This document shows positions 36,786-64,000 of a stretch of DNA of 64,000 nt, piece by piece. Source of the stretch: Psammoneis japonica (lineage: Eukaryota). A program made the position numbers and the translations under genes. The DNA lies in the NCBI GenBank assembly GCA_008632985.1, contig QPGO01000102.1:186001-250000 (forward strand), written 5' to 3'. The notes below the pieces were generated by a model that worked only from the letters and a program-made list of their open reading frames with translations, was not told the DNA's origin and did no database searches. Within the stretch, counting starts at the first letter, position 1, and each line of letters begins with the position of its first letter.

Positions 36786-37149
36786 AATCGCCTGCTTGGA
36801 TGGTACATTGATAAAGACATGTAGTTCGTTTGCGATGCTCTGGCAGTAAGAGAGAGAACGCTCGTCACCACCGTCTTTTCACCATGGTTCTTGCTTTTTC
36901 TCGTCGCTTGTGCCGCCGCGGAAGAATCGGATGCTCAAAAGCAGGACAAGTTTCACGTGAATTTCTACGGAACTTCAGCTATGACTCTTGCGCCGCTGTT
37001 TCCCCGCCAATTTCGAATTGCCCAATCTGCAGATCATTTTGGATTTTCATGTCACCACCGCCACTTACTCGCATCATCTGTCGCACCGCAAGCCGTTCAG
37101 CAATGCTGTAAGAGGACGGGACTTGCCATTGCTTCACCCCGCTCCCCGG

Positions 37150-43289: not shown

Positions 43290-45906
43290 ATGCCTCCCAA
43301 GCAAAACAAGCCCCTGGTCAAAGGGCAAAAGACTATTGGCAGCTTTTTTAGTCCCCGTGCCGAGGCCAATGCAACGACTACGACGACCGCCAAGACACCA
43401 TCCAATGCGCCACTGAAACGAAAAGCCTCGGAAACGCCTGCAGGCAGGAAGGCCAAGGTATCCAAAATTACTGAATTGTCCACTGCGCCAATCAGTAGTT
43501 TCTTTCTGTCTCCGCCACCTGCTCCTACTCTCAAGTCGCCTTCTACTATTGTTGCCGACTATCGTCCTACTGGCGACGAATCATCTACCAAGAATGCCGA
43601 TACCACTGGTAACGTCAGCAGTGACGAAAACGACAAATCGTACATTCGAGAAGACGATGGGTCCGACACCAACACCCATGGCAATGAGATGTCACACGAC
43701 GAGGAGTGCTTTTTCGAGCGATTGATCATGCCAATGTTTAGCTCCAACGTGGCGCGAGAAACAGCCAAGCCGTATTGTGAAGCCATGGTAGCACTTGCAG
43801 AAAAGCACCACGTCATTGAGCGTCCAGACGGATACTATTCCAACCAAATGCTCACCCGAGCTGTCACCAAGAGCCCTGGTCTTTACGGTATTCAAAAGGA
43901 AGCACTGGAAAAGATTGGTGCAAGCAGCAACATGCACAACCGCTGCAACATTTCAAAAGACATCGAGCAATACGACCAATTTCGTGTCATGATGAATCTT
44001 GATTGTACTGATGCCGAATTTGATGCAGAGATGCAAGTTGTTTACGAGAACTTTATTGATGCTTTTGACAAAGCTGAGGGATTGAGTGGGTTTCAACATT
44101 TCTTTTTTGTTGAGCTATTGCGAGACCGCCATGGGGAAAGCCTGGGACCCAAGAAAATGATTTGGTTATTAATGTTGGAATTCGGCCTGCAACAGAGAGA
44201 GAATCTTCCGGCGCCGTTTGAGTGTATGATGTACAAGGAATCTGTTGCGCAACTCTATTATGATTTGGCGGAATCAAACTGTAACTCGGTCACCAATCAT
44301 CTTTCCAAGATCATTGGTTGTGCAAGGGAGAATCCGTCGCTTCTATTCGTTTTCGCCATCTCTAGTTGGAAGACTGGACACGATGGTTTGTCCAGCAAGA
44401 TCTTGGCCACCCTTTGCATTGTTTTGCACGAGCATCTACAATGTGATACGCTCCCTTATCCAGCAGTCCATAACGCCGTGACTGCTGAAGAGAAGTACTC
44501 GACGGCGTACTCGGACCAACAGAAGGCTACCGCTCGGCTTGTCTTGTACTACCATGTGCAACAGTTGATTGAATCACCATTTGGGGTTTTATTCTTGGAC
44601 TCAAACAACTTGATATTTCGTGATGACCCCAATTTCCATCGGAGCGCAGCTCAGGTTCTTGAGGACCATGGCTTTCGAGAGGTTGAATGTATCCTATTTG
44701 GCGAGATTCGTCTATTTTTGGATTCGAGCGATCTTCATGCGGTTTTCTTGCACAAGCCGCTGTGCATTGCGAGTGACAGTCGGGCGTGCATTCCAATGAT
44801 GTTTCGTGTTCGCCGTGCATTGTCACTGTCAGTACTCTGTAACGTTGCTCGAGTGCTTCGGGACGAGGAACTTCTGAACCCAAGCATTAAGTTTCGCAAT
44901 CCCATCAATGGCATTCTTGGGTTCCAGGTGGGTCGACTTGGTCTTCATCAAAACCTGTTTGTGTGTTCAGCCATTGGCAAGGATTGTTTCTCTGGAGCTG
45001 AAACGAATGCTTTGGTTGAGAATAACCTTGCTAAAACGGTTGGAAAAGACGCGCCTGTGTCAAAAAGGTTCGCAAAGAGTGTTCGGCAAGGTGAGTCTGT
45101 CGTTGCATTTGCTTTTGTTCTTTTGCGTCGTTGTGTCAGACTAACAGCAGCTTTTTTTGTGTTTTCGTTTGTTGCCAAGCGGGAAGAAACGTGCAGCAGA
45201 TGTATTGCGCCCTGTTGATCGAGTCTTGCCATTCCAGTTCCGCTCCATCATCAGCCATGCTCAGCAAGGCGAGGAAGAGCAAATGTATCTTGAGATGCGT
45301 GAGCTTGCCAAGAAGGGTTTGGGTGGCACAACTGCAGACATGAAAACTTTCAACTATAGACTCAAAGAGACCATCATGAACCAAGCCATTCCTGGTTCGG
45401 CTTTGGCACTACACCTCATTTCTCTTCATGAGCGACATGCGCAAAACACGGGCAATCGTCAATCTGGACCTGGCAAGGGTAAAAGTAGAGCAGAGGTTGC
45501 GGACAACGATGCAATGGTGAGGAATCTCGTGGATGCTTGCCAACCAACGGCAAGTGGTGTGCCTGGACGTACATTTTGGGCAAAGGAGGTAAGCGGAGAA
45601 CGCTTTGTAGAACCAATGGGGCGCTCGTTGTCGGATTGCGGGGACCATCTTTTTCCCGGCGACAGCTACAATGAAGTTGCAGGCATGACATGTGAAGGCA
45701 TTAGAGAGCGTTGCAAGTCTTGCCGAACGTTCAAGGGAAACGCCAATTCTGTCACTTGCGAGCGGCATCCTCATTTGGACATCAAGAAGGTGAAATGCAA
45801 GAGGGACAAGAGACGCAAGGTCAGAGTCACTGTGGGTGGAATGCAGGGTGGAGTTGCGAACGGACATGTGTTGTGTCAATTTGTGTTCAGTGATTGCCAA
45901 AGCTGA
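43290..45906 (+). CDS. Repeat-borne gene copy A: ~840-aa unknown protein with N-terminal PIP-box-like motif (intron 45091-45179)
   Basis: Long ORF MPPKQNKPLVKGQKTIGSFF. GTGAGT donor and CTAAC branch site. 1-nt loss in the A-run at ~45062 relative to copy B. Least mutated copy. Confidence 0.7.
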
Positions 45907-48900
45907 GCATGACTTCTTTGATTGGAGCAAAAGTTGCCGTGCTGGGAAAGAAGCCCCATTTGGTTGTTGAGCTTGTGTTTGGTGATCCTCGTGAATGCGA
46001 AAAAGGTGCTGCAGCACAGTGGGGTGTTGCAGACTCTGCTGCAGAGAAGTGGACCGTGCTGCAGACATTTGATTGATCCTCGTGAATGCAAACAAAGCAA
46101 TTTCATTTGATCTTCATTGTGCAGTGTGCAGCAGTTGGCTGTGCATTTGCTCAGTGGAAAGGGTGCATTTCTGATTTGAAGTTTTGTTCCTTTTTTCATG
46201 TCTCGCTGTGTGGAGGTGCGCAATCTTTGCTGTCAAAAATTGCGCTTCAAGCAGTTGTGCTTTTGCAAGAAGAAATTGATGCCTGTGCAGTGCTTTTGCA
46301 ACTTTTGAAACATCGCCTTGCGACAAACGTGCCGGTGCAGCAATTGCAAACACTCCATCAGAGTCGTCGTGACGGGTTGCTCATTGTTTTCTCACACGCT
46401 CCAGACACAACACACACATTTTTCATGAAGTGACAATGAAACTGGAGACGCTGTTTCACCACGGTTGATTCCTCATGCAAGGTGAGATGCTGGTGAGATG
46501 ATCCCCCCCATTTGTGCAAATGATGTGTGTGCACAAGCTCTGTCTTGACATGTGCTGACAGTGTGTCTTTCTGCTTTTTTCTTTCCGCTTGTCTCAGTGC
46601 AGTTGCTTTTGATTGTGTCTCTCATCTTGTCCAAGGTGGAGTCTTCTCTTGGGTTCCGAAAGCTTCAGATCTGTGGACAAGGGCCAGAATGTGACTCCCT
46701 CCTTGCCAATCCAGGGCTGTCGCCAGCAAGTCCCCAGCTTGTGTGACGAAGTGTCGGCAAGTTACAAAAATTGAAGACCCATCTCATGACAAGCAGAGCA
46801 CATCAAGACACGCTTCAAGGCTCGCCAACTGGAGCGCAGCAGCATGAAATCAAAGTTCTCCGAATCTTTTTCATCTCAAGTGATGGCAAAGAGGCTGTCA
46901 GATGCAAAACACAAACAGCACATGTGCTGCATCAATGGCGGTGGGATCTAAAAAGGGAGCTGTTTTAGCATGGGAAAAGGCTGGCAGAGCAAAGGTCAAC
47001 AGGATGAGCTCAAAGCATGGTCGCCACATGGAAGGTGTCGGAGCAAAGGTTGACAGGATGCGCTCAAAACGCAAGCACCGAATGGAAGGTGGCAAGGCTG
47101 GCAGATCAAGTGGAAAGAGTGGTTTGAAGCACAAGAGCAACTTGCCTGTTGCTGAAAAAAGTGAAAAGTTCAAGAAACGTCACTCCCAGCTGGGAGGTCT
47201 GCAAAGGAGAAATGTGCTTGTTGTGGTGCTTGGCCCGGTTGTGCTTTTTTTTTTTGTTGTGCGCATGCATCGCGCATCATTGAGCTCTGTCGTGTGTCGG
47301 CAACGGTGCTTTTTGTTTTGCACATGCATGGTCCGGGGTGGTGGAAGGATGCAGAAAACCAAGGCAAGGGAAGCGAGTGAGCCAAAAACAAGGAAGGATG
47401 GCAGGATTTGGATTGCATCACAAAAAACAGCGGTGGCATCATCATCTCATCAAGCGATGTGCATCGCCTGTCTTCCTTCGGCATTGCGGTTGCCTGCCCG
47501 GCGCACTTGTGCATGTTCTCACCATCAATCTGATTTGTTGAGCCAGTGCTGCAGTGGTCAAGCTGCTGCATGAGCAAGACTCTGAAATGACACACCAAGA
47601 AGTGACAACCGACGCGCTCCAGCCCTGGGCGGGACTCCGTGTGACATTCGGCCGTAGAAGCCTGCGCACGAGCTCTTTCAAATGTGACACCCGAATCTCA
47701 GGAAACAAATGATCTCAATGAATGCATTCAAAACGAACAAAAAAATGATGGAAATGTTCTCCTGGTGACTTGGGATGTTGACAAAAACCAAGACTCGCCC
47801 CTGGCAAAAATTCGCCTCATGCATTCTCCAACAGCGACGAAGCCTTCTTGGCCATGACAGTCGTCTTTGCGTTGGTCTTTTGTTGACCATCCTTTTCATG
47901 TGTCCATTTTTCTTTTTTGTGGGCTGTTGTCCAAATGATGATTGCACCACATCTGGCGGGCATTGAACGCACGCTCTTTTGAGCTTTTGTGGTCTCTCCA
48001 GCAGCACCCCATTTTTTGCCCACATTGTTCTCTTGTGCTCTTTGTTCTTTTCTTCAGATTGAGACCATGATGAGAGAAATCATGCATCTTGCCTTGTTGA
48101 TGGACAAGGCAAAATGACTGCCGTTGAGTCTCAGCATGCTTTTCACTGTGTGGCGGCATTTGGATTCTTTGACTTTGAGGGTCAGTGTTTCACGCAGGCA
48201 CTGCAGCAACACAATGGACCATGGCATCATGGCAACAACTCCTTTTGGTGGCTTGACACAGAGAGACATCCTTTTCTGCCAGAGTTGCCAGTCTGTGGTC
48301 ATTGGTGAGAACGAGCGGCATTGAAGAGAGAACAATCTCTCCATCTGCCAGCTGCCGGTGCATTGTAGATTGCTGCGCTTGTGTTGTTGGCAAGCAGCAG
48401 CACACCATTTCACTCTCAGCATTGTTTCATCATTTTAGTCACCATTTGTCTCACACTCAGTCCACTCTGTTTTTGCTGACAATGTCAGATTGGATGAAAT
48501 CAACATGCAGAGGGGAGACGTCATGCATCGTGCACTGTGCCTCATGGACTGCAAAATGGTTGCCGTGTCATCATCAGTGACAAGAAAAGCCACGCTGCGC
48601 AATGATGTCAACGAGCGGCACTGCTGATCAGAGTGGTGTCTCAATTTCCAATTTCTGCATCTTGCTGTGCCATCAGATCTGCAGATTGTCATGCACATGG
48701 ATGAGTCTCAACACAACTCATCATTGTGTTCTTGCCTCACTCTTGGACTCTTCTTCATTCTGAACTCATCATGCCAGCATTTGGCAGAATCATCATGATG
48801 TGATGAACACTTTGCAAGTCACAAGTGATGATGTTTCAGAGTTTGCTGTTTGTGCAGCACGGCATTGATTTGTTTCCTGTTCAGCATTTTGCAGCAGAAG

Positions 48901-49580
48901 GACCGGCATGCATCACAAATGAAACACTCAAAAAATGGCATGGCAGCAACACTGCAAATCTTTCCATGTGTCGTGGGCATCTCATGCTGTTTGCTTTGTT
49001 TGCATTTTGCACACATGCTGTTGCTTGCGTGCTGGTGTGCTTTGAGACGTGCTGCTTGCTTTGATTGACACATCATTGCTCTTCTTTGAATGTGGTGAGC
49101 ATGCAACATGTGATGAATCACAAGGATGACAAACAAATTTGTGCATCTGGCCAGCACTCTTTCTTCTCTTTTTTGCAGACAATCAACGATTCTGGTCCAA
49201 GTCTGTCCTCCAAGAATGCCACTCTGACTGAAGTGCTGTGTGTGTTGATGGTGGTCCAAGTCTGTCCTCCAACATCAGAGTGCACGAAATGTTAAAAATG
49301 TGCAGATTTGCGTGATGACAATTTGTTTAAATGTTGCAAAATGTTGTTGTCGTGTGATGACAGGCCAACCTCTGGTTGCAAGTTTGGCACACCAACATTG
49401 CAACAACTTGTTGAGAATTGTGCACGCTGTTTTTCACTGCACCCACATCGCCATTTCTGCCTCCACCTTGTTGCCATGTGCCAATGCGTGATTGCATTGC
49501 CACACAAACCTTGGTTTGTCAATTTTTGCAAACATCATTTTAAACAAGAAAAACATTTCATCGGCCAAGTCAATTCCTTG

Positions 49581-51600
49581 TCACGTCTGCAGTGCAATGA
49601 CCGAGTGCCATGTCAACTGTGCACACATTTTCTTGCTGTGCAACTCTCTCAAACCAAGCTGACAATCATCATCGGACTCGTCTTCATTGGACTCGTCTTC
49701 ATCGGATTCGTCTCCTCCATTGTTCGTTTTTCCTTTTGCGCCTTCCTCCTGCTCATCGTCATCACCATTGTCGTCCCTGCTGCTCTCCACCATTGGGCTG
49801 TTCATTGCCTTCACCTTCTCTGCATCACCGGTCGGTGCTGTCTTCTTCTTCTTTTTTGCTTCTCCAGACTTCTCGTGCTTGCTTTTCTTGATCTCCACAT
49901 GCCACTTTTCAAACTCCTTGCCCTCCTTGGAGTCTCTGTCTTTCGTCACCTCTGTGCACAAATCGTTGAACCGAATGATTCCGTCGTCTCCCCAAGACTC
50001 TCGTTGTTTCTTTGGCTTTGTGCACCAAGGGGCAGGCCTTGTTTCTTCGGGCTCCATTTCCTCACCCAATTCTTCCACCGCCTCCTCCTTGTTCCTGCAT
50101 GCCCACACCTGCCAACAATTCTCCATGGCCAACAGCGCCAAAGCTTCGTCACCTGCCGCAAACAACTGTGAGACCTGTGCATTCCCAGTTTTGATGGCGC
50201 AACTCCATGCCTGCTTTTGCTTGGTTTGAGGCAGGATGTGATCACAGAACCACTTGCATGCCTGCTTGTTCCTTCGTTTGCCGCCAGCGACAGTGCCCAG
50301 GCTGAACGGATCCCATGTCGGCACAAATGGGGTGTCATTCTCTTCATTCTTGTCATGGCTTGACTTTTTCCTGTTTTGCTTTTTCCTCCTGACTGCCGCT
50401 TTGAGTTTCTTTTCTTTTTCCTTTCCCTCTTCCTTGGTGACAACGCCTGTGTGGACAAAGCATCACCGTCATCCTCTTGTGAGATGCGCGCAACTCTTGA
50501 ATCACACACATTGGTCACTTGACTTGCGGGCCATTGCCTCTGCCCCAACAGCCGAACACACCGTGTTTCTGCGATTGTTGATTTGCCTTTTTGCCGCCTT
50601 TTTTGCCCATTCCTCCCAAGTTCCTGACCAATTTGAAGTGTCCATGTTGCCACCAGCAATCTGTTTCTTGACAAACATTGAGACGCTCCCATTGCTTGCC
50701 AATTCTGATGGACTGAGAAACTTCACCTGTGGAAAGAGATCATTTCTGGCCACCTTCTCTGCTTCTGATTTCAATGCACCATGCGCTGCCTGCGCACCTG
50801 TTCTCTTCAACACTGCCTGAAGTCTCAGGCTCATTGGCTTGATGGTCTCATTTTTCTTTCTCTTCTTTGCCGGTGGTGCTGGAGACGACATCTTGATCTT
50901 TGCACGGCAGCAATGAGAGCAGTGTCACTGTTCGACAGTGCAGCCGTCGTCTGGGTCATGTTGAGACAGCCAGCCACTCTGTTTTTCTCTGCAACACTGC
51001 ACAAATCATTGTCAGCAACACTGAAATTTGAAAACACATTTGTGTGCAACAATGAACAGCCCAACTTGCTTTTTGACATGGCTGTCATTGCGTTCCAACG
51101 GAGACAATGTCCTTTGTTTTGACAGCAAATAAAAAAGAACAATGTCCACTGCAAATGCCAGATGAAAAATCAAAATGCAGACACGTCATGCCCATGAGAA
51201 TCATCCAAATCTGGAAGACAATGCAATGTTTGCCATTTTCCCGCCATTTTTTGCGTGTTGTTCTTCTTTTCCCTTCTCATCCACAAGACAAGGACGACGA
51301 GTGTGAGTCTTGATGAAGGCCCTGTCAACATTGACCAGAGAACCATGAGGCAACGGCATCAGCACACAGACTTGGTCAGTCGCTGGCAGCTTGATCACAA
51401 ACAAAGCAACTGGCTTTCAACGCCTGAGAAGACTCAGCACTCACCTGAGTTGCGGGTTGTCCCTGTCAAAGCAATTGGGGACAATGTTTTGGTTTGTGAA
51501 CAATGTCCAGGAGCAGCAGAAGCACAAGAAAAGGCCCCATTTGTTTGGGCTGCACAGGACAGAAGGAAGTGTTGGTCAGATTTGTTTCTAAAATGGGGTG
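49581..51600. mobile_element. Relic of a Plavaka/CMC-like DNA transposon (accessory gene on minus strand, possible transposase C-terminus on plus strand)
   Basis: Minus-strand remnants LFPQVKFL..W...RQINNRRN and GDEALALLAMENCW..W...W...GI.RFN.L...V..DR. Plus-strand remnant LRVVPVKAI...V...R..WSDLF. These resemble proteins I recall from such elements in diatoms; not verified. Confidence 0.45.
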
Positions 51601-51614
51601 CGCGTGTCAATCTG

Positions 51615-53688
51615 TCATTCACTCACAGTGATCACCCAACTCTTTCTTGCAAACATGATGAATTTGATCCTTTCAGAATTGGCAAAGTCATTGCAGCACA
51701 CGTGAAGCAGTGCGGTGCGAGCACCTTCCGTTGCTTTTGTTCTGATGTCTTCTTCAGAAACTCCAAAATGAGCTTCTTCCTGATTGGAGGGCTTTCCCAA
51801 CCACCGTTCTCGTTGTTCTTGGGTTGCAAGGTTGCTTGCAAAGAACATGCTCGCACAGCTCTTTGCAGCATCCTTGTCCATTGTGCATGTGTCGAACACA
51901 GCCGACAATTTCTTCCATTGTTTGACAACCTGGAAGAAGGTTGCAAGAGCAAAGGGAATCACCATGTTCCCCCCTTCTTCATTTTTGGAGAGCAAGGCCC
52001 GAAGATCAATTAGATTTTGGAAAAATTGAGTCGTCCCAAAATGACTGTCGCACCACTCTCCATCTGGCATCCAGCGGCAGTCCAACATGATTTGGTCGAA
52101 CCCATGATTGTCAAAATCAACAAGTTTCTCAAACTGCTGCTTGACTCTCTTGATGAAATCTCTTTTTTTCACATTGCAATTCAAACGCAGATCAGGATGT
52201 CCATCTTGGAGAGAAACTGTTGGAACGATGTTTGTGGTTGTTTTGTTAGATTCCTCAAATGCCATTGCGCGGGCCTCGTCTCGCCTGAGTTGGTCGGACA
52301 ACACCAAGGCCACCCCCTTCTCAGAGCACAATTCTTGAGAAGATGGTTGCCTTGCATTGAGCGGATGGGTCATCCCCAACCACAGCACATTGTGTGTTTC
52401 CCCGTTGGCTTCGTCACTTGTGAAACAATCTCCTGAGTCGCTGTGGTCCTCTTCACCCTCGGAGCAATGTGCAACTTGGTTGTGCTCATCATCAACAGGC
52501 TCTTCGCTTTTGTCCTCTTCACCCATGCAAGCAGTTGGAAGTTTGCTTGTTTTCTCGTCAATTGACTCCTCCTCGCAATCGTCACTTTTGTTCATTGCGA
52601 ATGACAACAAATCACCGGCGGCCTTCTTCCTGTTAGAACGAGAAATCAATGTGACAATGTTGGCACAATCAGACAGAAAACAAATGTGATTGCCATGAAA
52701 AAGCAACCTCTCTTTGCCATTCCAGCTCGGCTCGAACTTCATCAATCGACACGAATGGGACTGGCTCCCATTCACACCTTCCAAACCGCGTGATCATTGA
52801 TTGCCCATCAGAGAACAAGAGCAACAGATGCTGTCCGCAACAAAAGACATCGCAGATTCCCATCTTTTCACGAGCTGCACTCAGGTCACACAGTGAAGAC
52901 TCTGGGCCATTCTTTCCATGGTCTTCCAAATCAAAATCACCCTCTGTCCATTCCAAGAGCAAATCGCGCTTCTCCACCGGGACCTTCATTTCCTCCATTT
53001 GCTTTGCCACTCCCAACTTGGCTGCTGGATGGACAAGATTACGAAGGTCAGGGTGAGGATGGATCCCCATGCCACACAGCATCAATGTCTGCATGGAGTT
53101 CATGCATCTGAGCTCTCCACAATCAGCACCTGCATGATCCCATGTTTGGACCACGGTTTGAAACATGTCCTCGATCGCCTTGTGGCCAAACGTTGGCTTG
53201 CCAACATTGCCATTGATCCTGTCGATGACAACAACCAGTCCGCCAACAAGCAAATCCATCAAACCATTGAGTTTCATCCCGCACTCTGCCACATGAACCT
53301 CCTCGAAATCGAGTCCCAGGCTCTGCATGTGTCGGTTGTTGCGATCCCCCGCAATGCTGCCGAGTGGCCTCGCAGCTTCTCTGAAGCAATGAAGGACACG
53401 ATCGCCAGCCACGAAAGGATGCTTCACAGCATCTGTGTTGCACAACAAGCAGCAAAAATGGGAGAATCCGGTTTGACACCCAGCCACAATGGCGCAACGA
53501 AAGCAATCGTGTGCTTTGTCATTTTTTTGCGCACACATCCCATCGCACGTGCGTTGTGCGTGCTGCACGCGCACGTGGTCAGGATGGCGGAAGGACGCAG
53601 AAAACCAAGGGAAGCAAGGAAGGCAGGATTTTTGGATTGTTTCATAAAAAGTTTCTGCCACTGTCATCAAGCGACATGCATCGCCCAT
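51615..53688 (-). pseudogene. TpA-eroded remnant of a large unknown gene (two overlapping frames, 339 + 389 aa)
   Basis: Protein-like composition with an acidic linker, but almost no Tyr and excess Cys/His. Paralogous fragments at 47230-47600 and 58620-58740. Confidence 0.55.
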
Positions 53689-55572: not shown

Positions 55573-58337
55573 ATGCCTCCCAAGCAACACAAGAATCTTG
55601 ACAAAGGACAAAAGACCATTGGCACCTTTTTCAGTCCCAGTGCCAAGGCTGATGCAACGACTGCCATGACCGCCAAGACACCAGCCAACACGCAACCGAA
55701 ACGAAAAGCGGCAGAAACGCCTGCAGCGAGGAAGGCCAAGGTGCCCAGAATTGCCGAATTGCCCACTGTGTCAATCAGCAGTTTTTTCCAGAGTCCACCA
55801 GCTGATCCCACTCTCAAGACACCCTCTGCTGTCATTGCCAATTGTTGTCCCATCGGCACCGGTGCTGCAACTTTGCTGGACAAACCATCCACCATGAATG
55901 CCGATGCTGTTGGCACACATGTTGCCACCAAGTCCAGCTGCGAGGCTAAATCAGCCATCAGTCCATCTGACTCCATCATTGCTGCAAATGGATCATCATT
56001 GGACGCAGCCCTAAAAGAAGCAACCGCGAAAAGCAGCAACGCCAACAGCTGCAAGGACGACGAATCGTACATTCGAGAGGATGATGAGTCCGACTGCAAC
56101 GAGAACCAACACAAGACAATTTGTGAGATGCCACACAACGAAAAGGACTTTTACAAGCAATTGATCATGCCAACGTTTGGCTCCAACGTGGCCAGAGAAA
56201 CTGCCAAGCCACGTTGTGAAGCCATGGTGGCAATTGCTGAAAAACACCACTTCATTGAACGTCCAGACGGGCATCATTCGGACCAAATGCTCACCCGAGC
56301 TGTCACCAAGAGCCATGGTGTTTGTGGCATTCAAAAGGATGCACTGGCAAAGATTGGTGCAAGCAGCAACATGCACAACCATTGCAACCTTTCAAAAGAT
56401 GTCGAGCAATGCGACCAATTTCGTGTCATGGTCAATCTCGACTGCACCGACGCCGACTTTGATGCAGAGATGCAAGTGCTTTGCCGGAACTTCATTGATG
56501 CCATTGACAAAGCTGATGGATTGAGCGAGTTTCAGCATTTTTTTTTCATCGAGCTGTTGCGAGACCGGCACGGGGAAAGCCTGGGACCCAAGAAAATGAT
56601 TTGGTTGCCAATGTTGGAATTCGGCCTGCAACAGAGAGAGAATCTTCCTGCGCCGTTTGAGTGCATGATGCACAAGGAATCTGTTGCAGAACTCCACTGT
56701 GATTTGGCGGAATCAAACTGCAACTTGGTCACCAATCATCTTTCCAAGATCATTGGTTTTGCAAGGGAGAATCCGTTGCTTCTGTTCGTTTTTGCCATCT
56801 CTAGTTGGAAGACTGGATGTGATGGTTTGTCCAGCAATGTCTTGGCCACCCTTTGCATTGTTTTGCATGAGCATCTACGATGTGATGCGCTCCCTTGTCC
56901 AGCGGTCCATGACGCCGTGACTGCTGAAGAGAAGCACTCGAAAGCGCACACGGACCAACAGAAGGCTGCCGCTTGGCTTGTCTTGCACTGCCACATGCAA
57001 CACCTGATCGAGTCACCGTTTGGAGTTGCACTCTTGGACAAGAACAACTTGACATTTCGTGATGACCCCAATTTCCATCGGAGCGCAGCTCAGGTTCTTG
57101 AGGACCATGGCTTTCGAGAGGTTGAATGCATCCCATTTGGCGAGATTCGTCTGTTTTTGGATGAGAGCAAGCTTCACGCAGTTTTCTTGCACAAGCCACT
57201 GTGCATTGCAAGCGACAGTCGGGCGTGCACTCCAATGATGTTTCATGTTTGGCATGCATTGTCACTGTCAGTTCTCTGCAACGTTGCTTGAGTGCTTCGG
57301 GGCGACGAACTTCTGAACCCAAGTGTCAAGTTTTGCAATCCCATCAATGGCATTCTTGGGTTCCAGGTGGGTCGACTCGGTCTTCATCAAAATCTTTTTG
57401 TGTGTTCAGCCATTGGCAAGGAATGTTTCTCTGGAGCTGAAACGAATGCATTGATTGAGAATGACCTTGCGAAAACGGTTGGAGAAGACGCGCCTGTTTC
57501 AAAGATGGTTCGCGTAGAGCGCTCGGCAAGGTGAGTCTGTCTGCTTTTGTTCTTTTGCATCATCACATCCTGCTGACAGCAGCCTGTTTGTGCCATCCTC
57601 TGTTGCCAAGTGGCAAGAAACGGGCAGCAGATGCATTGCGTCCTGTTGATCGAGTCTTGCTGCACCAGCTCCGCTCTGTCATTGGCCATGCTCAGCAAGG
57701 CGAGGAAGAGCAAATGTGTCTTGAGATGCGCGAGCTTGCCAAGAAGGGTCCAGGCAGCACAACTGCGGACAAGAAAACGTCCAACTGTGGACTCAAAGAG
57801 ACCATCATGAACCAAGCCATCCCTGGTTCGGCTTTGGCACTGCACCTCATTTCTCTGCATGAGCGACATGCGAACAACACGGGCAATCGTCAATCTGGAC
57901 CTGGCAAGGGTAAAAGCAGAGCAGAGGTTGCAGACAACGATGCAATGGTGAAGGATCTTGTGGATGCTTGCCAATCCACTGCAAGTGGCAAGCCTGGACT
58001 GGCATTCTGGGCAAAGGAGGCAAGCGGAGAACGCTTTGTAGAGCCAACGGGGCGCTCGTTGTCGGGTTGCGGGGACCATCTTTTTCCCGGCAACAGCTGC
58101 AATGAAGTTGCAGGCATGACATGTGAAGGCATTAGAGAGCGTTGCAAGTCTTGCCAAACGTTCAAGGGAAATGCCAACTCTGTCACGTGCGAGCGGCATC
58201 CTCATTTGGACATCAAGAAGGTGAAATGCAAGATGGACAAGAGACGCAAGGTCAGAGTCACTGCGGGTGGAATGCAGGGTGGAGTTGCGAACGGATGTGT
58301 GTTGTGTCAATTTGTGTTCAGCAATTGCCAAAGCTGA
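55573..58337 (+). pseudogene. Repeat-borne gene copy B, heavily TA-mutated, premature TGA at 57289-57291
   Basis: Colinear with copy A. The stop is CGA->TGA. Tyr codons are converted to Cys/His. Confidence 0.85.
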
Positions 58338-58875
58338 GTGTGACTTCTTTGATTGGAGCAAAAGTTGCCGTGCTGGGAAAGAAGCCCCATTTGGTTGTTG
58401 AGCTTGTGTTTGGTTGATCCTCGTGAATGCGAAAAAGGTGCTGCAGCACATTGGGGTGTTGCAGACTCTGCTGTGGAGAAGTGGACCACACTGCAGACAT
58501 TTGATTGATCATCATAAATGCAAAAACACTTTCAGGCGGATGTGCTTTTGCCAAATGGGAGGCATTGTTAGCACAGAGACACGTTCTTGTTTCTTGGTTG
58601 CCATTTTCCATGTTTGAGGCATTTTTTGTCGCGCGCATTTATCGCGCATCATTTCGCTCTATCGTGTGTCGGCGTCGGTGCCTTTTTTTTACGCGTGCGT
58701 GGTCCGGGGTGGCGGAAGGATGCACAAAACAGAAAACCAAGGGACGCACCCCTGTGGCAGGGGAGCTGTGTGTGTGTGCGTGGTTGTGCGCGCACGGCTT
58801 CGCCGTGCGTTGAGTTTTAATGTCAACATCCACACGAATGTGCACATTCCACAAGCAAAAATTCCCATTCCACAG

Positions 58876-60994
58876 CTCCCCTAAAACTCTAACCACCAAA
58901 AACCGAGGGGTCGGAAGCGCACTTTTGGGAGCTCTTTTTCTCCGCACAAAAAACACGCGTTTCGTCGACTCGACCATGATGATGCCTCGTGGTTCTTCCC
59001 CATCGCCTTCCCAGGACGCCGATCCTGCTGACACCGTTGCTGATGACACTGATGCAACAGGCAATGTCATCACTCCGGTTCTCGTGGGTGTGACACGCAC
59101 AAAATAAGATGCTACAAACTCACACTGTTGTTTGCACGCTCCACCGCCTCCCACAGATGCTGTCACGAATTCCAACGCCGCACCTGCGTTTCGGCCCCCT
59201 GGCATGCCCGATGCTGTTGCTCCTGCCCTCACTGCCGCAGGTGCTGTTGACACTGTTGTTGCATTTTGCCAACAACGTCCACAATAAAATGCCAATGACT
59301 CACACTTCTTTCATTCTCGCCCCACCGCCTCCCACAGATGCTGTCACGAATTCCAACGCCGCACCTGCGTTTCGGCCCCCTGGCATGCCCGACACTGTTG
59401 CTCCTGCCCTCACTGCCGCAGGTGCTGTTGATGCTGTTGTTGCATTTTGCCAACAACGTCCACAATGAAATGCCAACAACTCACACTTCTTTCATTCTCG
59501 CCCTGCCGCCTCCCACAGATGCTGTCACGAATTCCAACGCCGCACCTGCGTTTCGGCCCCCTGGCATGCCCGACACTGTTGCTCCTGCCCTTGCTGCCAC
59601 AGATGCTGTTGATGCTGTTGTTGCATTTTGCCAATGACGTCCACAATGAAATGCCAACAACTCACACTTCTTTCATTCTCGCCCCACTGCCTCCCACAGA
59701 TGCTGTCACGAATTCCAATGCCGCACCTGCGTTTCGGCCCCCTGGCATGCCCGACACTGTCAATCCTGCCCTTGCTGCTGCAGTCACTGTTGACACTGTC
59801 ATTGTTTTTGCTTTGGAAGGAACACAATGGATGACGGATGACGGCGGACCAGGAAACCCACGCAACCACGGCCTGCTGATGGACGACACATCAATGGACA
59901 TGAATGGTGCCTCTTGGCCAGCTCTCGAGTGCAGTCTAATCTTTAGAATGTGCAGACACATTGTGCAGCTCTCTGTAAATTAGAAACCTGATGACAATTA
60001 GATGGCAGGCATGCTTTCACAGTTTTTCAGTTTCAAGTTGGAGAGGTCAGCGAATTGGCATTTGTTTGCAGGCGACTTGGCAAGGTTTCAAATGGTGCAT
60101 GTGACTTGGACACTGCTCTGTTTTCCAGGACTGGGTCATTGTGTGCAATTCCACAAGAGGCCACTCTCGCCGTTTGAATTCTACATGTGATGCACAACAC
60201 ACTGTTTTTGCATGTTGCTAAAATGGAGGCAGGCAGCAACGTGCTTTTGGCAAATGCTCACCATGTTTGTCACTGTTAGACCTTCAAAACTGGTGCCTTG
60301 TCGACAGCCATGCTGCCACTTTGCATGACGGCACCTTCTCTGCCCGCATTCCATCAGCTGCATCCTCCTTCACATGTTGCTGCGGTTCATCTTGACACTT
60401 GTTGTTGGCTCCGATTGGTTCCGCTGGGCTCTGGGTGAGTCTCAATCACCTGCAGACAGACAAGGTTCTGCTTGGGAATGATCATCCTGAGAAAGGTTGT
60501 CACCATGCCTCCTGTCATAGATGCTCCTCTGCCACGCCCACTGAACCTTGACGTCGGTTTGTTGCTTTTGTTTTTTGACCTGGTTTCGGAGCTGCACCCC
60601 AGACCGTTTGAGAGAAGGCTCATCAGTGCCTTCCACAACACGGCGATGCAAACGAGAATCCAGTTTCTCCGGGGACGCAATGACAGGAGTGGACCAATCA
60701 CGGCGCTGTGTTTGTGTTTCAGGCACAGGATCCGGCGAACAGAAGCCCAAATCCTCTGGATGGCAAATCGGCTGTGTTTGGGTAACGACAGCGGGTGCAA
60801 CGGTGCCGTCCAATGCAGGAGGGACTGCCGCATCAGATGTGGCAGGCGGGGATGCGTCAGGTGGTGTGGGGGACGAAGAACGGGAGGTCGTCATGGTCGA
60901 GTCGACGAAACGCGTGTTTTTTGTGCGGAGAAAAAGAGCTCTCAAAAGTGCGCTTCCGACCCCTCGGTTTTTGGTGGTTAGAGTTTTAGGGGAG
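58876..60994. mobile_element. 2.1-kb element bounded by ~105-bp near-perfect terminal inverted repeats
   Basis: CTCCCCTAAAACTCTAACCACCAAAAACCGAGGGG...GACTCGACCATGA at 58876-58980 and its reverse complement ending at 60994 (1-2 mismatches). No convincing TSD and no transposase. Confidence 0.75.
59100..59810 (+). repeat. 181-bp tandem repeat, ~4 units
   Basis: CCACAGATGCTGTCACGAATTCC recurs at 59151, 59332, 59513 and 59694. Confidence 0.95.
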
Positions 60995-61747
60995 AATGTG
61001 GTTCAGGATTTTTCTCCATTGCTTCATTCGTTGCTCACATTATTCTCTTGTGCTCTTAATTCTTTTCTTCAGACGTCATACGTTATACCTTATTGACGGA
61101 CAAGGAGAAATAACTATGATTGAGTCTCAGCACGCTTTTGACTGTGAGTTGGCATTTGGACTCTTTGGTTTTGAAGATCAGTGTTGCACGCAGGCACTGT
61201 AGCAACACAATGGACTTATGGTATGGCAATAATTCCTTTTGGTGGCTTGATGCAGAGAGACGTCCTTTTCTGCCAGAGTTACCGGTCTATAGTCATTAGT
61301 GAGAACGAGCGGTGTTGAATAGAATGATCTACTGGTGTATTGTGGAATGCTGTGTTTGTAATATTGGTAAGTAACGTACCACTTCACTCTTGGCATCGTT
61401 TCGTTATTTCAATTGCTATTTATCTCACACTCTGTCTATTCTGTTTTTACCGACAATATCAGATTGGATGAAGACAACACGTGGAGGGGAGACGTCATGC
61501 GTTGTGCCTCATTCACTGCGAAATGGTTACCATGTCATCGCCAGCAATAAGAAAAGCTACATTACGTAATAATATCGACGAACGGCACTGAACAGAGTGG
61601 CGTCTGATTTTTTTTTGTTTCTTGCTGTGCATTCGGATCTACAGAGAAAGACCGCTGAACGACTCGTACCTTATCAATCTAGGGTTGTCGTCATAGGTCA
61701 ATACTTTGTGGTGACGAGTGGCAACGAGTAACAGGAACTTAAAAAGC

Positions 61748-61802
61748 ACCTCAAGACGCAGTACCTCAAGACGCAGTACCTCAAGACGCAGTACCTCAAG
61801 AC
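61748..61802 (+). repeat. 15-bp tandem repeat, ~3.7 units
   Basis: ACCTCAAGACGCAGT x3 plus a partial unit. The paralogous site near 42360 has only ~2 degenerate units. Confidence 0.9.
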
Positions 61803-62686
61803 ACACCTCTAAATGCCCTGCTTCGACAGTGCTGCAGAGTTTCAGAGATTCGGACACACTGTCTGCCTCACAGGCGTTGTTGATTTTTGCATTCACTTTA
61901 TTCATTTGGGCTTTACGACGCGTTCGGCTATCTTAATACAAACAGCAATGTATCATCCATGTTATGGGTGACGAGATGAGAATGATGCCGACGAAAACCG
62001 GTAGTACGAGGACAGACTGTCCGTGACTGAGCACGCGGGTTTGATGACTCGAAAAAGATCTGCAAAATTGGCGCGCCGGAATTCTCCGGTCATCAATCTC
62101 AGAATCGACGAAAAGAAGGCGAGAGTCGCATCGAGCTGCTCTGTGTTGTGACTGATCTTTGAAAGGTAAGCCTTTATCTCTGTTCATATCAATATCTTGT
62201 GTTGCTTATACTATGAGTATGATTCTCACTTCTCATGTTTGGTTTGTCGTCGTGTCGATCGTTTGGACGCAAGAGTCGACTCTATCGGCACACGAGGTGC
62301 GTCGGACGTCAAGAGACTCCTCATGACAGCATCATACCCGCAGCGTTATCACTAGGTGAGTATTGAATCGACACAATGCTATTCTTCAATTTCCTATTTA
62401 TAAAATGTATTGCTCATTGACTGTTTTGTTCCTTGTTGATTGTTGGTTCGATGTCGTTCAGCCCTGAAGAACGAACGAATTGCAATAACACGCATACACT
62501 GCACTCGGCTCGGCATTGGTGGCTGTGTACCAATTGCTATCATTCGACACAGTGAGCACTCAATCACACCATTGTTCATACTGAACTCTTTTGTTTCTGA
62601 TGCACTTCCAACCATTCGTCGTTTGCTGTTGTGATGCCGAAGGAGTCGCACGTGTTTCGTATTGCAGCTAAATATGTCGCATCACC

Positions 62687-64000
62687 ATGCCTCCCAAGCA
62701 ACACAAGAATCTTGACAAAGGACAAAAGACCATTGGCACCTTTTTCAGTCCCCGTGCCATGGCTAATGCGGCAGCTGGCATCACAAGCAAGTTCAAGACA
62801 ACTGCCAGAACTCCTGCCATTGCGCTACCACTGAAACGAAAAGCAGCTGATGCACCGGCCGGAAAAAAGTCCAAAATGCCCAAATATACCGTGCAATCCA
62901 CACTGCCAATCGGAAGTTTTTTTCAGAGTCCACTACCCGCTCCTTCTCTCAAGACGCCTTCTGCTATTGTTGCGGACCATCGTCCTACTGGCGACGAATC
63001 ATCTACAGAGAATGCCGACACTACCGGTGCACATGGTGCTACCAAGTCCGATGGCGAGACTGAATCAGCTACCAGCCCATCTGACTCCATTGTTGCTACA
63101 AATGGATTGTCGTTGGACGAAGCTCTAAAAGAAGCAACCGAGAATGGCAGCAACGAGGACGACAAATCGTGTGTTCAGGAAGACAATGAGTCCGGCAGCT
63201 ACACCCATGGCAAAGAGATGCCACACAACGAAAAGGACTTTTACAAGCGATTGATCATGCCAACGTTTAGCTCCAACGTGGCCAGAGAAACTGCCAAGCC
63301 GCATTGTGAAGCCATGGTGGCAATTGCTGAAAAACACCACTTCATTGAACGTCCAGACGGGCATTGTTCGGACCAAATGCTCACCCGAGCTGTCACCAAG
63401 AGCCCTGGTGTTTATGGTGTTCAAAAGGATGCACTGGTAAAGATTGGTGCAAGCAGCAACATGCACAACCGTCGCAACATTTCAAAAGATATCGAGCAAC
63501 ACGACCAATTTCGTGTCATGATCAATCTCAACTGCACCGACGCCGACTTTGATGCAGAGATGCAAGTAGTTTACCGGAACTTTATTGATGCTATTGACAA
63601 AGCTGATGGATTGAGCGAGTTTCAGCATTTTTTTTTCATCGAGCTGTTGCGAGACCGGCATGGGGAAAGCCTGGGACCCAAGAAAATGATTTGGTTATTG
63701 ATGTTGGAATTCGGCCTGCAACAGAGAGAGAATCTTCCGGCGCCGTTTGAGTGTATGATGCACAAGGAATCTGTTGCGCAACTCTATTATGATTTGGCGG
63801 AATCAAGCTGTAACTCGGTCACCAATCATCTTTCCAAGATCATTGGTTGTGCAAGGGAGAATCCGTCGCTTCCATTCGTTTTCGCCATCTCTAGTTGGAA
63901 GACTGGACACGATGGTTTGTCCAGCAAGATCTTGGCCACCCTTTGCATTGTTTTGCACGAGCATCTACAATGTGATGCGCTCCCTTGTCCAGCGGTCCAC
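62687..64000 (+). CDS. Repeat-borne gene copy C (runs off window), intermediate TA mutation
   Basis: ATG CCT CCC AAG CAA CAC at 62687 with an open frame to the window end. Colinear with copies A and B. Confidence 0.75.
   Translation, partial: MPPKQHKNLDKGQKTIGTFFSPRAMANAAAGITSKFKTTARTPAIALPLKRKAADAPAGKKSKMPKYTVQSTLPIGSFFQSPLPAPSLKTPSAIVADHRPTGDESSTENADTTGAHGATKSDGETESATSPSDSIVATNGLSLDEALKEATENGSNEDDKSCVQEDNESGSYTHGKEMPHNEKDFYKRLIMPTFSSNVARETAKPHCEAMVAIAEKHHFIERPDGHCSDQMLTRAVTKSPGVYGVQKDALVKIGASSNMHNRRNISKDIEQHDQFRVMINLNCTDADFDAEMQVVYRNFIDAIDKADGLSEFQHFFFIELLRDRHGESLGPKKMIWLLMLEFGLQQRENLPAPFECMMHKESVAQLYYDLAESSCNSVTNHLSKIIGCARENPSLPFVFAISSWKTGHDGLSSKILATLCIVLHEHLQCDALPCPAVH

What the first reader, a model, noticed from the sequence alone, without database searches (positions are those of the whole stretch)
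43290..64000. Repeat-targeted TpA->TpG/CpA (A:T->G:C) hypermutation, a 'reverse RIP', seen between paralogous gene copies
Seen: of 16 Tyr codons in exon 1 of copy A (43290), copy B (55573) has 7 Cys (TGY), 7 His (CAY), 1 Arg (CGT, both bases) and 1 Tyr. Examples: DGYYS->DGHHS, QLYYD->ELHCD, EKYSTAY->EKHSKAH, VLYYH->VLHCH. Copy C (62687) was hit independently (EQYD is EQCD in B and EQHD in C; DGYYS is DGHCS in C). The rest of the core protein is highly similar. Established: fungal RIP creates TpA (CpA->TpA) and 5mC decay only removes CpG, so neither removes TpA. Inference: a strand-symmetric A->G process acts on repeated or silenced DNA, a candidate genome-defence system. I do not know of a published description in diatoms, but could not search.
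Basis: partly seen in the sequence, partly recalled or inferred. Interest (0 to 1): 0.93.

Follow-up and report, generated by a model that had tools for sequence, protein, structure and literature searches.

The report
TpA-erasing hypermutation in diatom repeats
In this diatom-like genome, silent repeat-rich stretches have had nearly every TA step changed to TG or CA, the footprint of a mutation process so far described only in a 2026 preprint on an unrelated alga and possibly a genome defence.

Summary
The 16 Tyr codons of copy A are 7 Cys, 7 His, 1 Arg and 1 Tyr in copy B.

Polarity is settled: TA is ancestral. Copies B and C often carry different derivatives (TG against CA) at one site. In 143 outside relatives the conserved Tyr columns are Tyr where B has Cys or His.

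The effect is much larger than three gene copies. 28 of the window's 64 kb lie in sharply bounded blocks with TA observed/expected 0.06 and CG 0.43, against TG 1.68 and CA 1.75. The background has TA 0.55.

The blocks contain high-copy repeats and no recognisable gene families. Housekeeping genes lie between them.

Surviving TAs are almost all YTAR and almost never RTAY. The target is therefore T-A-Y read on the strand of the changed A.

Repeat copies A and C outside the blocks are largely spared, so the process follows a domain state rather than homology.

It is not unpublished. A 2026 bioRxiv preprint shows the same TpA-to-TpG/CpA hypermutation arising de novo in Bigelowiella natans. My searches found no report for diatoms. 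Verdict: a real new member of a very recently described kind.

The parts
41600..46092 (+). Repeat unit A. It carries the least-mutated gene copy: exon 1 ORF 43290-45218, and a second ORF 45157-45906 matching the C-terminal part of relatives. TA density falls along the unit (O/E 0.61, 0.43, 0.23) and it enters the low-TA domain at about 45600-45700.
   Evidence: Self-blastn and purine/pyrimidine (RY)-coded blast; ORFs; TA profile; exon 2 homology in alignment A2.
53879..58524 (+). Repeat unit B, wholly inside the low-TA domain. The gene copy at 55573-57291 is hypermutated: 0.3% Tyr, 9.4% Cys+His, and the conserved Tyr of the GVY motif is Cys. It is a likely pseudogene whose frame stays open because TAA and TAG are erased.
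   Evidence: Exact X1 contigs cover 55164-55536, 55609-56154, 56729-57017 and 58481-58774.
61009..64000 (+). Repeat unit C, cut by the window end. The gene copy starts at 62687. It is partly hit: of 12 Tyr sites, 5 are His and 3 Cys. TA O/E falls 0.70, 0.50, 0.34 towards the 3' end. The start of the unit coincides with the end of the low-TA domain (TA density is normal from about 60979).
47911..49272 (+). Partial fourth copy (D) of the unit's 5' part, inside the low-TA domain. Of 38 TA steps in C aligned to D, 21 are TG, 13 CA and none TA.
45600..60980 (.). Largest low-TA domain, about 15 kb. TA O/E is 0.00-0.17 per kb, CG 0.32-0.88, and TG and CA 1.4-2.3. It contains the 3' end of unit A, copy D, a high-copy repeat, unit B and a tandem array.
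49090..53786 (.). High-copy repeat inside the domain. The ORF at 51618-52793 (-) has one outside relative, P0275 (53% identity over 253 aa). P0275's 7 Tyr are Cys, Arg, Cys, Phe, Val, His and Cys in the window, and the window ORF has no Tyr in that stretch.
   Evidence: Summed contig depth is 2284-27510 here, against about 54-274 in most other bins; 3262 contigs were laid in all..
7101..9200 (.). Low-TA, low-CG block: 6 TA and 14 CG in 2100 nt.
   Evidence: No Pfam family reaches its cut-off in its ORFs.
16901..21900 (.). Low-TA, low-CG block: 17 TA and 41 CG in 5000 nt. The right edge is sharp, with regular TA from 22113.
25301..27500 (.). Low-TA, low-CG block: 7 TA and 20 CG in 2200 nt. It holds a TA-free run at 25525-27021.
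36901..40800. Low-TA, low-CG block: 19 TA in 36901-40600's segments, including a 300-nt stretch not called low. TA density is normal from 40806.
59137..59783 (.). Tandem array of a 181-nt unit, 3.6 copies, 94% matches, inside the low-TA domain.

Best explanation
Shown: a DNA-level process acting in place has converted nearly all TpA steps to TpG or CpA inside sharply bounded, repeat-rich domains of a diatom-like nuclear genome. Genes between the domains keep normal TA. The same domains have lost CpG to TpG/CpA. TA loss runs faster: 89% of TA against 35% of CG became TG, CA or CG between copies A and B.

Shown: the target is longer than a dinucleotide. Read on the strand of the changed A, T-A-Y (C more than T) is hit and T-A-R resists. 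YTAR sites therefore survive and RTAY sites vanish.

Inferred: the domains are the CpG-methylated, silenced repeat compartment known from other diatoms. The process is tied to that chromatin state, not to sequence homology.

Inferred, and the least certain step: the chemistry is enzymatic deamination of adenine to hypoxanthine in DNA by a TadA/ADAT-type deaminase. Hypoxanthine then templates C at replication. It acts on either strand.

Consequence: TAA and TAG stops, Tyr codons and TA-rich signals are erased. The copies become missense-riddled pseudogenes with spuriously long open frames. This is the same signature that arises de novo in integrated viral DNA of Bigelowiella natans.
For: Context and direction:
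- Fates of 71 TA steps of A in B: 31 TG, 30 CA, 2 CG, 5 TA, 3 other. None of B's 7 TA steps aligns to TG or CA in A.
- Rates are 0.46 and 0.45 at TpA, against 0.04-0.13 elsewhere.
- Three-way patterns with different derivatives: (TA,TG,CA) 5, (TA,CA,TG) 3, (TA,CG,CA) 2, (CA,TG,TA) 3. No site has TA only in B.

Outgroups:
- Y199 is Tyr in 73/82 relatives, Y252 in 53/88 and Y407 in 77/102. B has Cys, Cys and His there.
- A second family shows the same: P0275's 7 Tyr correspond to Cys, Arg, Cys, Phe, Val, His, Cys.

Domains:
- 28,000 nt have TA O/E 0.06, CG 0.43, TG 1.68, CA 1.75. The other 36,000 nt have 0.55, 0.94, 1.25, 1.23.
- Edges are sharp.
- 27 of 64 1-kb windows meet the preprint's cluster criteria. 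Spearman correlation of TA with CA+TG is -0.84, and of TA with CG is +0.72.
- Normal blocks hold COG5, MCM_bind, PMSR and GT61. None of 118 ORFs in four low blocks reaches a Pfam cut-off.
- Repeat content: 3262 contigs laid, with very high depth at 49.1-53.8 kb.

Motif:
- Residual TA steps are RTAY in 1/106 (normal 29.5%) and YTAR in 57/106 (normal 15.4%), chi-square p = 7e-25.
- In polarised events, a C after the changed A wins 34:10, p = 4e-4.
- TGY+RCA rise in the blocks while TGR+YCA hardly change.

Both strands are hit almost equally: TGY 978 against RCA 812 in the big domain.

Literature:
- The preprint reports 230 of 231 de novo mutations as A>G or T>C. It states that all of these fall on TpA.
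- Cyclotella cryptica has binary CpG-methylated repeat blocks up to 30 kb, with gene-body methylation rising towards the 3' end (passages). This parallels the TA and CG gradient along copies A and C.
Against: - No enzyme was seen. No genome is held for this window, so no deaminase could be sought.
- TpA is palindromic, so a thymine-directed chemistry at R-T-A gives identical footprints.
- Methylation and silencing of the blocks are inferred from CpG loss and from other diatoms, not measured. No RNA run was listed.
- Only one of the five blocks was tested for repeat content.
- The four other blocks have no paralogue in the window. For them, in-place conversion is argued by analogy.
- The flank statistics pool events from B and D against the same C sites, so they are not fully independent.
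- TAC preference as a TadA trait rests on my recall of the tRNA-Arg UAC loop and on one review passage about an engineered variant. Eukaryotic ADAT2/3 substrates, as I recall them, do not share a pyrimidine after A34.
- Shared TG/CA states in B and C (14 concordant against 8 discordant) could partly reflect common ancestry or gene conversion.
Confidence: 0.6

Rival explanations
1. Same domain-restricted hypermutation, but the chemistry acts on thymine. An enzyme modifies or oxidises T in R-T-A (for example to a hydroxymethyl-uracil-type base), and the product mispairs or is mis-repaired to C.
For: TpA is self-complementary, so every count and 57 reads equally well as T>C with a purine before the T (G more than A). 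Thymine hypermodification with a TpA preference is known from dinoflagellates; this is recalled and was not checked here.
Against: I know of no thymine-modifying system in diatoms, and none could be sought because no genome is held. As far as I recall, modified thymines that still pair with A are not strongly mutagenic. The B. natans authors favour adenine deamination, also without proof.
Confidence: 0.15
2. There is no dedicated enzyme. TpA steps suffer spontaneous damage everywhere, and the compacted, methylated repeat compartment simply fails to repair it. The transitions therefore accumulate passively.
For: Genome-wide TA O/E is already low (0.55) in the normal parts. The blocks coincide with CpG decay, another passive process.
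Against: - TA was lost about 4.5 times as fast as CpG and more than 10 times as fast as TG or CA (-ln(1-p) of 2.65 against 0.59, 0.23 and 0.17). This is hard to reach without catalysis.
- The strict flank rule (RTAY 1/106) looks like enzyme recognition.
- In B. natans the rate is about 1000-fold above background and is switched on in only some lines.
Confidence: 0.12
3. RNA editing followed by reverse transcription. Transcripts of retroelements are A-to-I edited at UA, and the edited copies are reinserted.
For: A U before the edited A is the usual preference of RNA adenosine deaminases (stated in the preprint's discussion).
Against: - Both strands are hit about equally inside one copy (31 TG, 30 CA).
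- The effect fills a contiguous 15-kb domain spanning unrelated sequences and starts part-way through copy A.
- No reverse transcriptase or other Pfam family reaches its cut-off in the ORFs tested: 118 from four low blocks and the ORFs of 150 aa or more elsewhere.
- ADARs are, as I recall, confined to animals.
Confidence: 0.04
4. Reversed polarity. TG/CA is ancestral, and copies A and C gained TA by an ordinary RIP-like C-to-T process.
For: Some sites have the same TG or CA in both B and C while A has TA (14 sites).
Against: - 13 sites carry different derivatives in different copies, which needs extra steps under this model.
- Outside relatives have Tyr or Phe where B has Cys or His.
- A's TA level equals the genomic background.
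- B's 9 TA steps in 2480 nt and 0.3% Tyr are abnormal for any gene.
Confidence: 0.01
5. Assembly or base-calling artefact at modified bases, or foreign DNA with an odd native composition.
For: Heavily modified DNA can cause systematic long-read miscalls (recalled). The blocks have no recognisable genes.
Against: - Contigs of run X1, at word depth 22-38, match copy B with 0 differences over 1502 nt in four pieces. The run may be the same sample.
- Paralogues inside and outside the domain show site-by-site conversion rather than a different origin. Identity between A and B is 96.2% with purines and pyrimidines collapsed, against 88.5% in full.
Confidence: 0.03

Closest known systems
TpA hypermutation of integrated giant-virus and virophage DNA in Bigelowiella natans (Mettrop et al., bioRxiv 10.64898/2026.01.13.699255; I read the abstract, Results and Discussion, and word-searched the main text)
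   Same: - Changes are almost only A>G and T>C, at TpA, giving TpG or CpA.
- They are confined to particular regions of non-host-like or repeated DNA.
[quoted passage not shown] 27 of 64 windows here meet their thresholds.
- Many affected ORFs are unannotatable.
   Different: - The host is a diatom-like stramenopile, not a rhizarian.
- The footprint is saturated here (TA O/E 0.06 over 28 kb). Their giant-virus (NCLDV) region has Rho TpA 0.45.
- It coincides with CpG decay. 'CpG' does not occur in the preprint's main text (0 hits).
- The T-A-Y / YTAR flank rule: 'trinucleotide', 'flanking' and 'context' have 0 hits in their main text. I could not see their figures or supplements.
- No viral origin is shown here.
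- Here there is only the historical footprint, with no de novo mutations observed.
Repeat-induced point mutation (RIP) of Neurospora and other fungi
   Same: Hypermutation by transitions in a dinucleotide context. It ruins repeated or selfish DNA and leaves compositionally aberrant blocks beside normal genes.
   Different: - The direction is opposite. RIP makes TpA from CpA; this removes TpA.
- It raises rather than lowers local GC at the hit sites.
- It removes stop codons instead of creating them.
- It does not hit all copies of a repeat, since A and C are largely spared.
5-methylcytosine decay of CpG in methylated diatom repeats (Cyclotella cryptica methylome, PMC5124317; passages read)
   Same: Binary block structure of repeat-rich DNA against gene-rich DNA. 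CpG is lost to TpG/CpA in the same blocks.
   Different: It cannot remove TpA. Here TpA loss is the faster and more complete of the two processes.
TadA/ADAT tRNA adenosine deaminases and TadA-derived DNA adenine base editors
   Same: A to I read as G, with a T/U before the target. A pyrimidine-A-C preference is reported for an engineered TadA variant (review passage). The native UAC loop of tRNA-Arg is recalled.
   Different: No such enzyme was identified here. Natural enzymes act on tRNA. Action on chromosomal DNA of a chromatin domain would be a new natural function.

Membership tests
TpA-to-TpG/CpA regional hypermutation (as in B. natans) | Excess transitions are A>G/T>C confined to TpA | tested here: met
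   33/71 and 32/71 at TpA, against 0.04-0.13 in other contexts. 61 of the 66 changed TA steps became TG or CA. CpG transitions occur in addition.
TpA-to-TpG/CpA regional hypermutation (as in B. natans) | [quoted passage not shown] | tested here: met
   27 of 64 windows, in 7 runs of 1-6 kb.
TpA-to-TpG/CpA regional hypermutation (as in B. natans) | Targets are foreign or selfish DNA (virus, transposon) | tested here: inconclusive
   High-copy repeat at 49.1-53.8 kb and multi-copy units. No transposase, reverse transcriptase or viral family was found.
TpA-to-TpG/CpA regional hypermutation (as in B. natans) | Arises de novo at a rate about 1000-fold above background, episodically | not testable with these tools
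   Needs mutation-accumulation or pedigree sequencing.
Fungal RIP | C-to-T at CpA, creating TpA | tested here: not met
   The direction is TA to TG/CA.
Fungal RIP | All sufficiently similar repeat copies are mutated | tested here: not met
   A and C (82-97% identical over the 5' 2-3 kb) keep TA O/E 0.43-0.70 there, while B is at 0.03-0.09.
Fungal RIP | RID-type DNA methyltransferase homologue, premeiotic timing | not testable with these tools
   No genome is held.
CpG decay through 5-methylcytosine | CpG depleted with gain of TpG/CpA in repeats | tested here: met
   CG O/E is 0.43 in the blocks against 0.94 outside. 43 of 124 CG steps of A are TG or CA in B. Methylation itself was not measured.
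ADAR-type hyperediting of retroelement RNA | Changes on one strand relative to the transcript, bounded by the element | tested here: not met
   31 TG against 30 CA within one copy. The domain spans unrelated sequences.
TadA/ADAT-type adenine deamination | T/U before the target A and a C-biased base after it | tested here: met
   A C after the changed A wins 34:10. RTAY is 1/106 among survivors. This is a footprint only and fits R-T-A thymine chemistry equally well.
TadA/ADAT-type adenine deamination | A CDA-fold deaminase (HxE...PCxxC) encoded by the organism and acting on DNA | not testable with these tools
   No genome is held. None was seen among the window's ORFs scanned.
GIY-YIG nuclease superfamily (for the repeated gene itself) | GIY...YIG-type motifs and the alpha/beta fold | tested here: inconclusive
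   - The family consensus reads GVYxI...KIGxTxNxxxR.
- In the model (pLDDT 91.6), residues 60-172 match I-TevI at Z 4.8 (rmsd 2.0, 61 aligned) and UvrC at Z 4.7 (rmsd 3.1, 67 aligned).
- Foldseek gives 2lwf with probability 0.93 over 77 columns.
- There is no Pfam hit.

The most novel reading that the evidence does not exclude
Diatoms, and by extension much of the stramenopile-alveolate-rhizarian (SAR) group, possess a natural DNA adenine deaminase. It reads 5'-T-A-Y-3', is recruited to CpG-methylated silent chromatin and erases TpA from transposons and other invaders. This would be a widespread genome-defence pathway mirroring fungal RIP, and a natural counterpart of laboratory adenine base editors.
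Probability: 0.35. Interest if true: 0.88.

Novelty: new member of a known kind. Interest (0 to 1): 0.74.

Why it matters
If this holds genome-wide, a second and very distant algal lineage carries the TpA-erasing hypermutation first reported in 2026. That would make it a candidate ancient or recurrent eukaryotic genome defence rather than a curiosity of one species.

The window adds three testable points:
- The process saturates. 44% of this window (28 of 64 kb) is nearly TA-free.
- It shares territory with CpG decay, which points to recruitment by the methylated or silent chromatin state.
- It obeys a three-base rule (T-A-Y hit, YTAR spared), which gives a direct biochemical assay for candidate enzymes.

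There are practical consequences too:
- Gene finders will call long false ORFs in such DNA, because TAA and TAG are gone.
- Repeat-family consensus building, dating by divergence and composition-based binning in diatoms will all be biased.
- A natural DNA adenine deaminase would interest genome-editing work.

Tried and rejected
- Whole-genome access: none is held. No genome-wide scan or deaminase search was possible.
- Word-index homologue search with copy A: no hit among 7278 candidates in the 353-1124 aa range. The exhaustive search then found 143 relatives.
- Atlas look-up of the MCM-binding ORF gave no useful taxon.
- Pfam on ORFs of the low-TA blocks: 0 of 118 reach a cut-off, with six sub-threshold hits that I take as chance. 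Nineteen relatives of copy A have no family.
With a 7-sequence alignment it returned one metagenome locus, L001, of normal composition (TA 0.47, CG 1.28). It found nothing in viral contigs.
- Purine/pyrimidine-coded self-comparison found no similarity among the four smaller blocks. Their repeat status is untested.
- Sequencing runs: no RNA holder was listed. X3 laid nothing and X2 only 14 contigs.
- The 40 listed differences to other genomic copies are mostly CpG-type and add little.
- Foldseek against the PDB gave nothing at E <= 0.001. MoeA/gephyrin, MogA and uracil-DNA-glycosylase-like matches to residues 191-430 are middling (Z 5-7.1) and I make no call.
- Earlier notes of this scan held nothing relevant.
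- Literature: searches returned the B. natans preprint, and no listed title or abstract concerned TpA hypermutation in diatoms. The library lacks most subscription journals.
- A first look for 'YAC' hit yeast artificial chromosomes.

Full report
**1. The observation**

The three copies exist. Self-blastn pairs 43630-46092 with 56057-58524 at 88.5% identity. It pairs 43618-44470 with 63147-63999 at 90.9%, and 55368-56909 with 62496-63999 at 82.1%.

A codon-level alignment gives exactly the reported numbers: 16 Tyr codons in A, against 7 TGY, 7 CAY, 1 CGT and 1 TAC in B. Of the 12 sites that can be aligned in C, 5 are His, 3 Cys and 4 Tyr.

At DNA level, 71 TA steps of A (43161-45570) are 31 TG, 30 CA, 2 CG, 5 TA and 3 other in B. 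None of B's 7 TA steps faces TG or CA in A.

The change depends on context. A>G occurs at 33/71 sites after T, against 0.04-0.10 after other bases. T>C occurs at 32/71 before A, against 0.05-0.13. Copy B has 9 TA steps in 2480 nt.

**2. Polarity**

Three lines of evidence agree that TA is ancestral.

- *Discordant derivatives.* In the three-way alignment, 13 sites carry different derivatives in different copies: (TA,TG,CA) 5, (TA,CA,TG) 3, (TA,CG,CA) 2 and (CA,TG,TA) 3. Each is one step per lineage from TA but needs extra steps from any other ancestor. No site has TA only in B.
- *Outside relatives.* An exhaustive profile search found 143 relatives of the copy A protein, 76 of them at E <= 1e-10. 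Named members come from the diatoms Seminavis robusta, Nitzschia inconspicua and Amphora. Y199 of A is Tyr in 73/82 relatives, Y252 in 53/88 and Y407 in 77/102. B has Cys, Cys and His at these columns, and no relative has more than one Cys or His there.
- *A second family.* The ORF at 51618-52793(-) in the same domain has one outside relative, P0275. P0275's 7 Tyr are Cys, Arg, Cys, Phe, Val, His and Cys in the window. The window ORF has no Tyr over 253 aligned residues.

**3. What is really there**

The paralogue contrast is a local view of a domain-scale feature. Per-kb dinucleotide ratios show blocks with TA O/E of 0.00-0.27, low CG, and TG and CA at 1.4-2.3. At 400-nt resolution the blocks are 7101-9200, 16901-21900, 25301-27500, 36901-40600 and 45601 to about 60700.

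| Part of window | Length | TA O/E | CG O/E | TG O/E | CA O/E | GC |
|---|---|---|---|---|---|---|
| Low-TA blocks | 28,000 nt | 0.06 | 0.43 | 1.68 | 1.75 | 0.488 |
| Remainder | 36,000 nt | 0.55 | 0.94 | 1.25 | 1.23 | 0.473 |

Edges are sharp. TA occurs every 10-30 nt up to 7093 and next at 8052. There is no TA from 20900 to 22113, after which the density is normal. TA-free runs reach 1589 nt, with a chance of about 4e-27 at the background rate.

The normal parts carry ordinary eukaryotic genes: COG5, MCM-binding protein, a Roc GTPase, MsrA-FKBP and GT61. None of 118 ORFs from four low blocks reaches a Pfam cut-off.

TAA and TAG fall from 7.5 per kb each to 1.6 and 1.25 per kb, while TGA is unchanged. 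That explains the many overlapping long ORFs on both strands in 46-61 kb. They are artefacts of stop-codon erasure.

**4. Repeats, and whether repetition is the trigger**

Contigs of a public DNA run were laid on 46101-58900. In total 3262 contigs were laid at 90% likeness or more. Summed depth is 2284-27510 over 49090-53786, against about 54-274 in most other bins. That stretch is therefore a high-copy family.

The window holds four copies of the unit: A, B, C and a partial D. With purines and pyrimidines collapsed, A and B are 96.2% identical, against 88.5% in full. Most of their divergence is therefore transitions.

Repetition alone does not decide the outcome. A and C are 82-97% identical to each other over 2-3 kb, yet they keep background TA over most of their length. 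B and D, which lie inside the domain, are saturated. C's TA steps at 61014-61655 are 18 TG, 7 CA and 3 TA in B, and 21 TG, 13 CA and 0 TA in D.

The domain also begins part-way through copy A, at about 45.6 kb, and ends within about 30 nt of the start of unit C. A and C are lightly hit in both directions. They show a 5'-to-3' decline of both TA and CG.

In Cyclotella cryptica, CpG methylation is binary. It covers repeat blocks of up to 30 kb and rises towards the 3' end of genes (passages). I infer that the blocks here are that methylated, silent compartment and that the TpA process follows it. In this window TA correlates with CG at rho = +0.72.

**5. A longer motif**

Among 106 TA steps that survive in the blocks, RTAY classes (ATAC, ATAT, GTAC) number 1, against 29.5% of TA steps in normal DNA. 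YTAR classes (CTAA 34, TTAA 15, CTAG 8) number 57, against 15.4% (p = 7e-25).

In polarised events the strand whose A is followed by C wins 34:10. A G before the TA gives CA 21 times against TG 4 times.

TGY+RCA rise from roughly 75 to 130 per kb in the blocks, while TGR+YCA barely change.

Read on the strand of the changed A, the target is T-A-Y with C preferred. Read as a thymine change, it is R-T-A. Both strands are used almost equally: TGY 978 against RCA 812 in the large domain.

The words 'trinucleotide', 'flanking' and 'context' do not occur in the preprint's main text. I could not see its figures or supplements.

**6. Rates**

Between A and B, -ln(1-p) is 2.65 for TA, 0.59 for CG, 0.23 for TG and 0.17 for CA. 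TpA is lost several times faster than CpG. In the large domain TA is saturated while CG O/E is still 0.3-0.9. In the smaller blocks CG falls as low as 0.06-0.25 in the most depleted kilobases, which suggests they are older.

**7. Mechanism**

- *Shown:* an in-place, DNA-level, strand-symmetric, domain-restricted TA to TG/CA conversion with a T-A-Y rule.
- *Inferred:* recruitment by the methylated or silent state.
- *Least certain:* deamination of adenine by a TadA/ADAT-type enzyme, as the B. natans authors also propose. The C after the target A recalls the UAC loop of tRNA-Arg (recalled) and the YAC preference of an engineered TadA (review passage).

A thymine-directed chemistry cannot be excluded from sequence. 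Passive damage without repair seems too slow and too unspecific. RNA editing followed by reinsertion is contradicted by the strand symmetry and the domain structure. Reversed polarity is contradicted. An assembly artefact is unlikely, because accurate contigs match B exactly over four pieces. That run may, however, come from the same sample.

**8. Comparison with what is known**

The closest case is the 2026 preprint on Bigelowiella natans. There, 230 of 231 de novo mutations in two viral insertions are A>G or T>C. The authors state that all of these fall on TpA. The genome holds 124 clusters of TpA-poor, CpA+TpG-rich windows.

By their thresholds, 27 of the 64 windows here qualify.

The window is not B. 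natans. The best hit of its MCM-binding protein is 42% identical, and all named hits are diatoms.

Seven literature searches returned no paper whose listed title or abstract concerned TpA hypermutation in diatoms. I file the finding as a new member of a very recently described kind. It adds three features: saturation, co-location with CpG decay, and the three-base rule.

**9. The gene itself**

The repeated gene belongs to an unannotated diatom family. Its N-terminus carries QKTIGSFF, which resembles a PCNA-binding motif (consensus recalled).

A confident model (pLDDT 91.6) shows a small domain weakly matching GIY-YIG nucleases. It also shows an alpha/beta domain without a clear match.

Copy A looks intact. 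Copy B has lost the conserved Tyr of the GVY motif.

Noticed in passing
window 43290-45906 (copy A); also 55573-58337 and 62687-64000: The repeated gene belongs to an unannotated family with 143 relatives; the named ones are from diatoms. It starts with QKTIGSFF, a PCNA-binding-like motif (consensus recalled). Its consensus reads GVYxI...KIGxTxNxxxR, and residues 60-172 of the model weakly match GIY-YIG nucleases (Z 4.7-4.8). Its function is unknown.
   Followed up: partly
window 45600-61000, both strands: Dozens of overlapping ORFs of 100-390 aa lie in all six frames. They exist because TAA and TAG have been erased (1.6 and 1.25 per kb against 7.5), leaving TGA as the only common stop. Gene finders would over-call here.
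   Followed up: yes
proteins P0180 (254 aa) and P0191 (204 aa), relatives of copy A from metagenome and other public assemblies: Both have no Tyr at all and 9.1% and 7.4% Cys+His. P0180 has Cys at 2 of the 3 conserved-Tyr columns it covers. They may be hypermutated copies in other organisms. Their DNA could not be fetched.
   Followed up: partly
window 49090-53786: This stretch is a very high-copy family in the same sample. Thousands of diverged contigs lay on the 12.8-kb stretch, with by far the greatest depth here. It has no recognisable transposase or reverse transcriptase, and only one database relative was found for its longest ORF.
   Followed up: partly
window 59137-59783: A 181-nt tandem repeat (3.6 copies, 94% matches) lies inside the low-TA domain. 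It has a strong local TG over CA excess (TG O/E 2.17, CA 1.47 in 59001-60000).
   Followed up: no
window 43722-44471 against the matching parts of B and C: Relationships among the copies are mosaic. B and C are 94% identical over 43722-44221, where A-C is 90-91%. A and C are 97% identical over 44222-44471. This suggests gene conversion or recombination between copies.
   Followed up: no
whole window, normal parts: Even outside the blocks TA O/E is only 0.55, with TG and CA about 1.24. A low level of the same process genome-wide is possible but was not tested.
   Followed up: no
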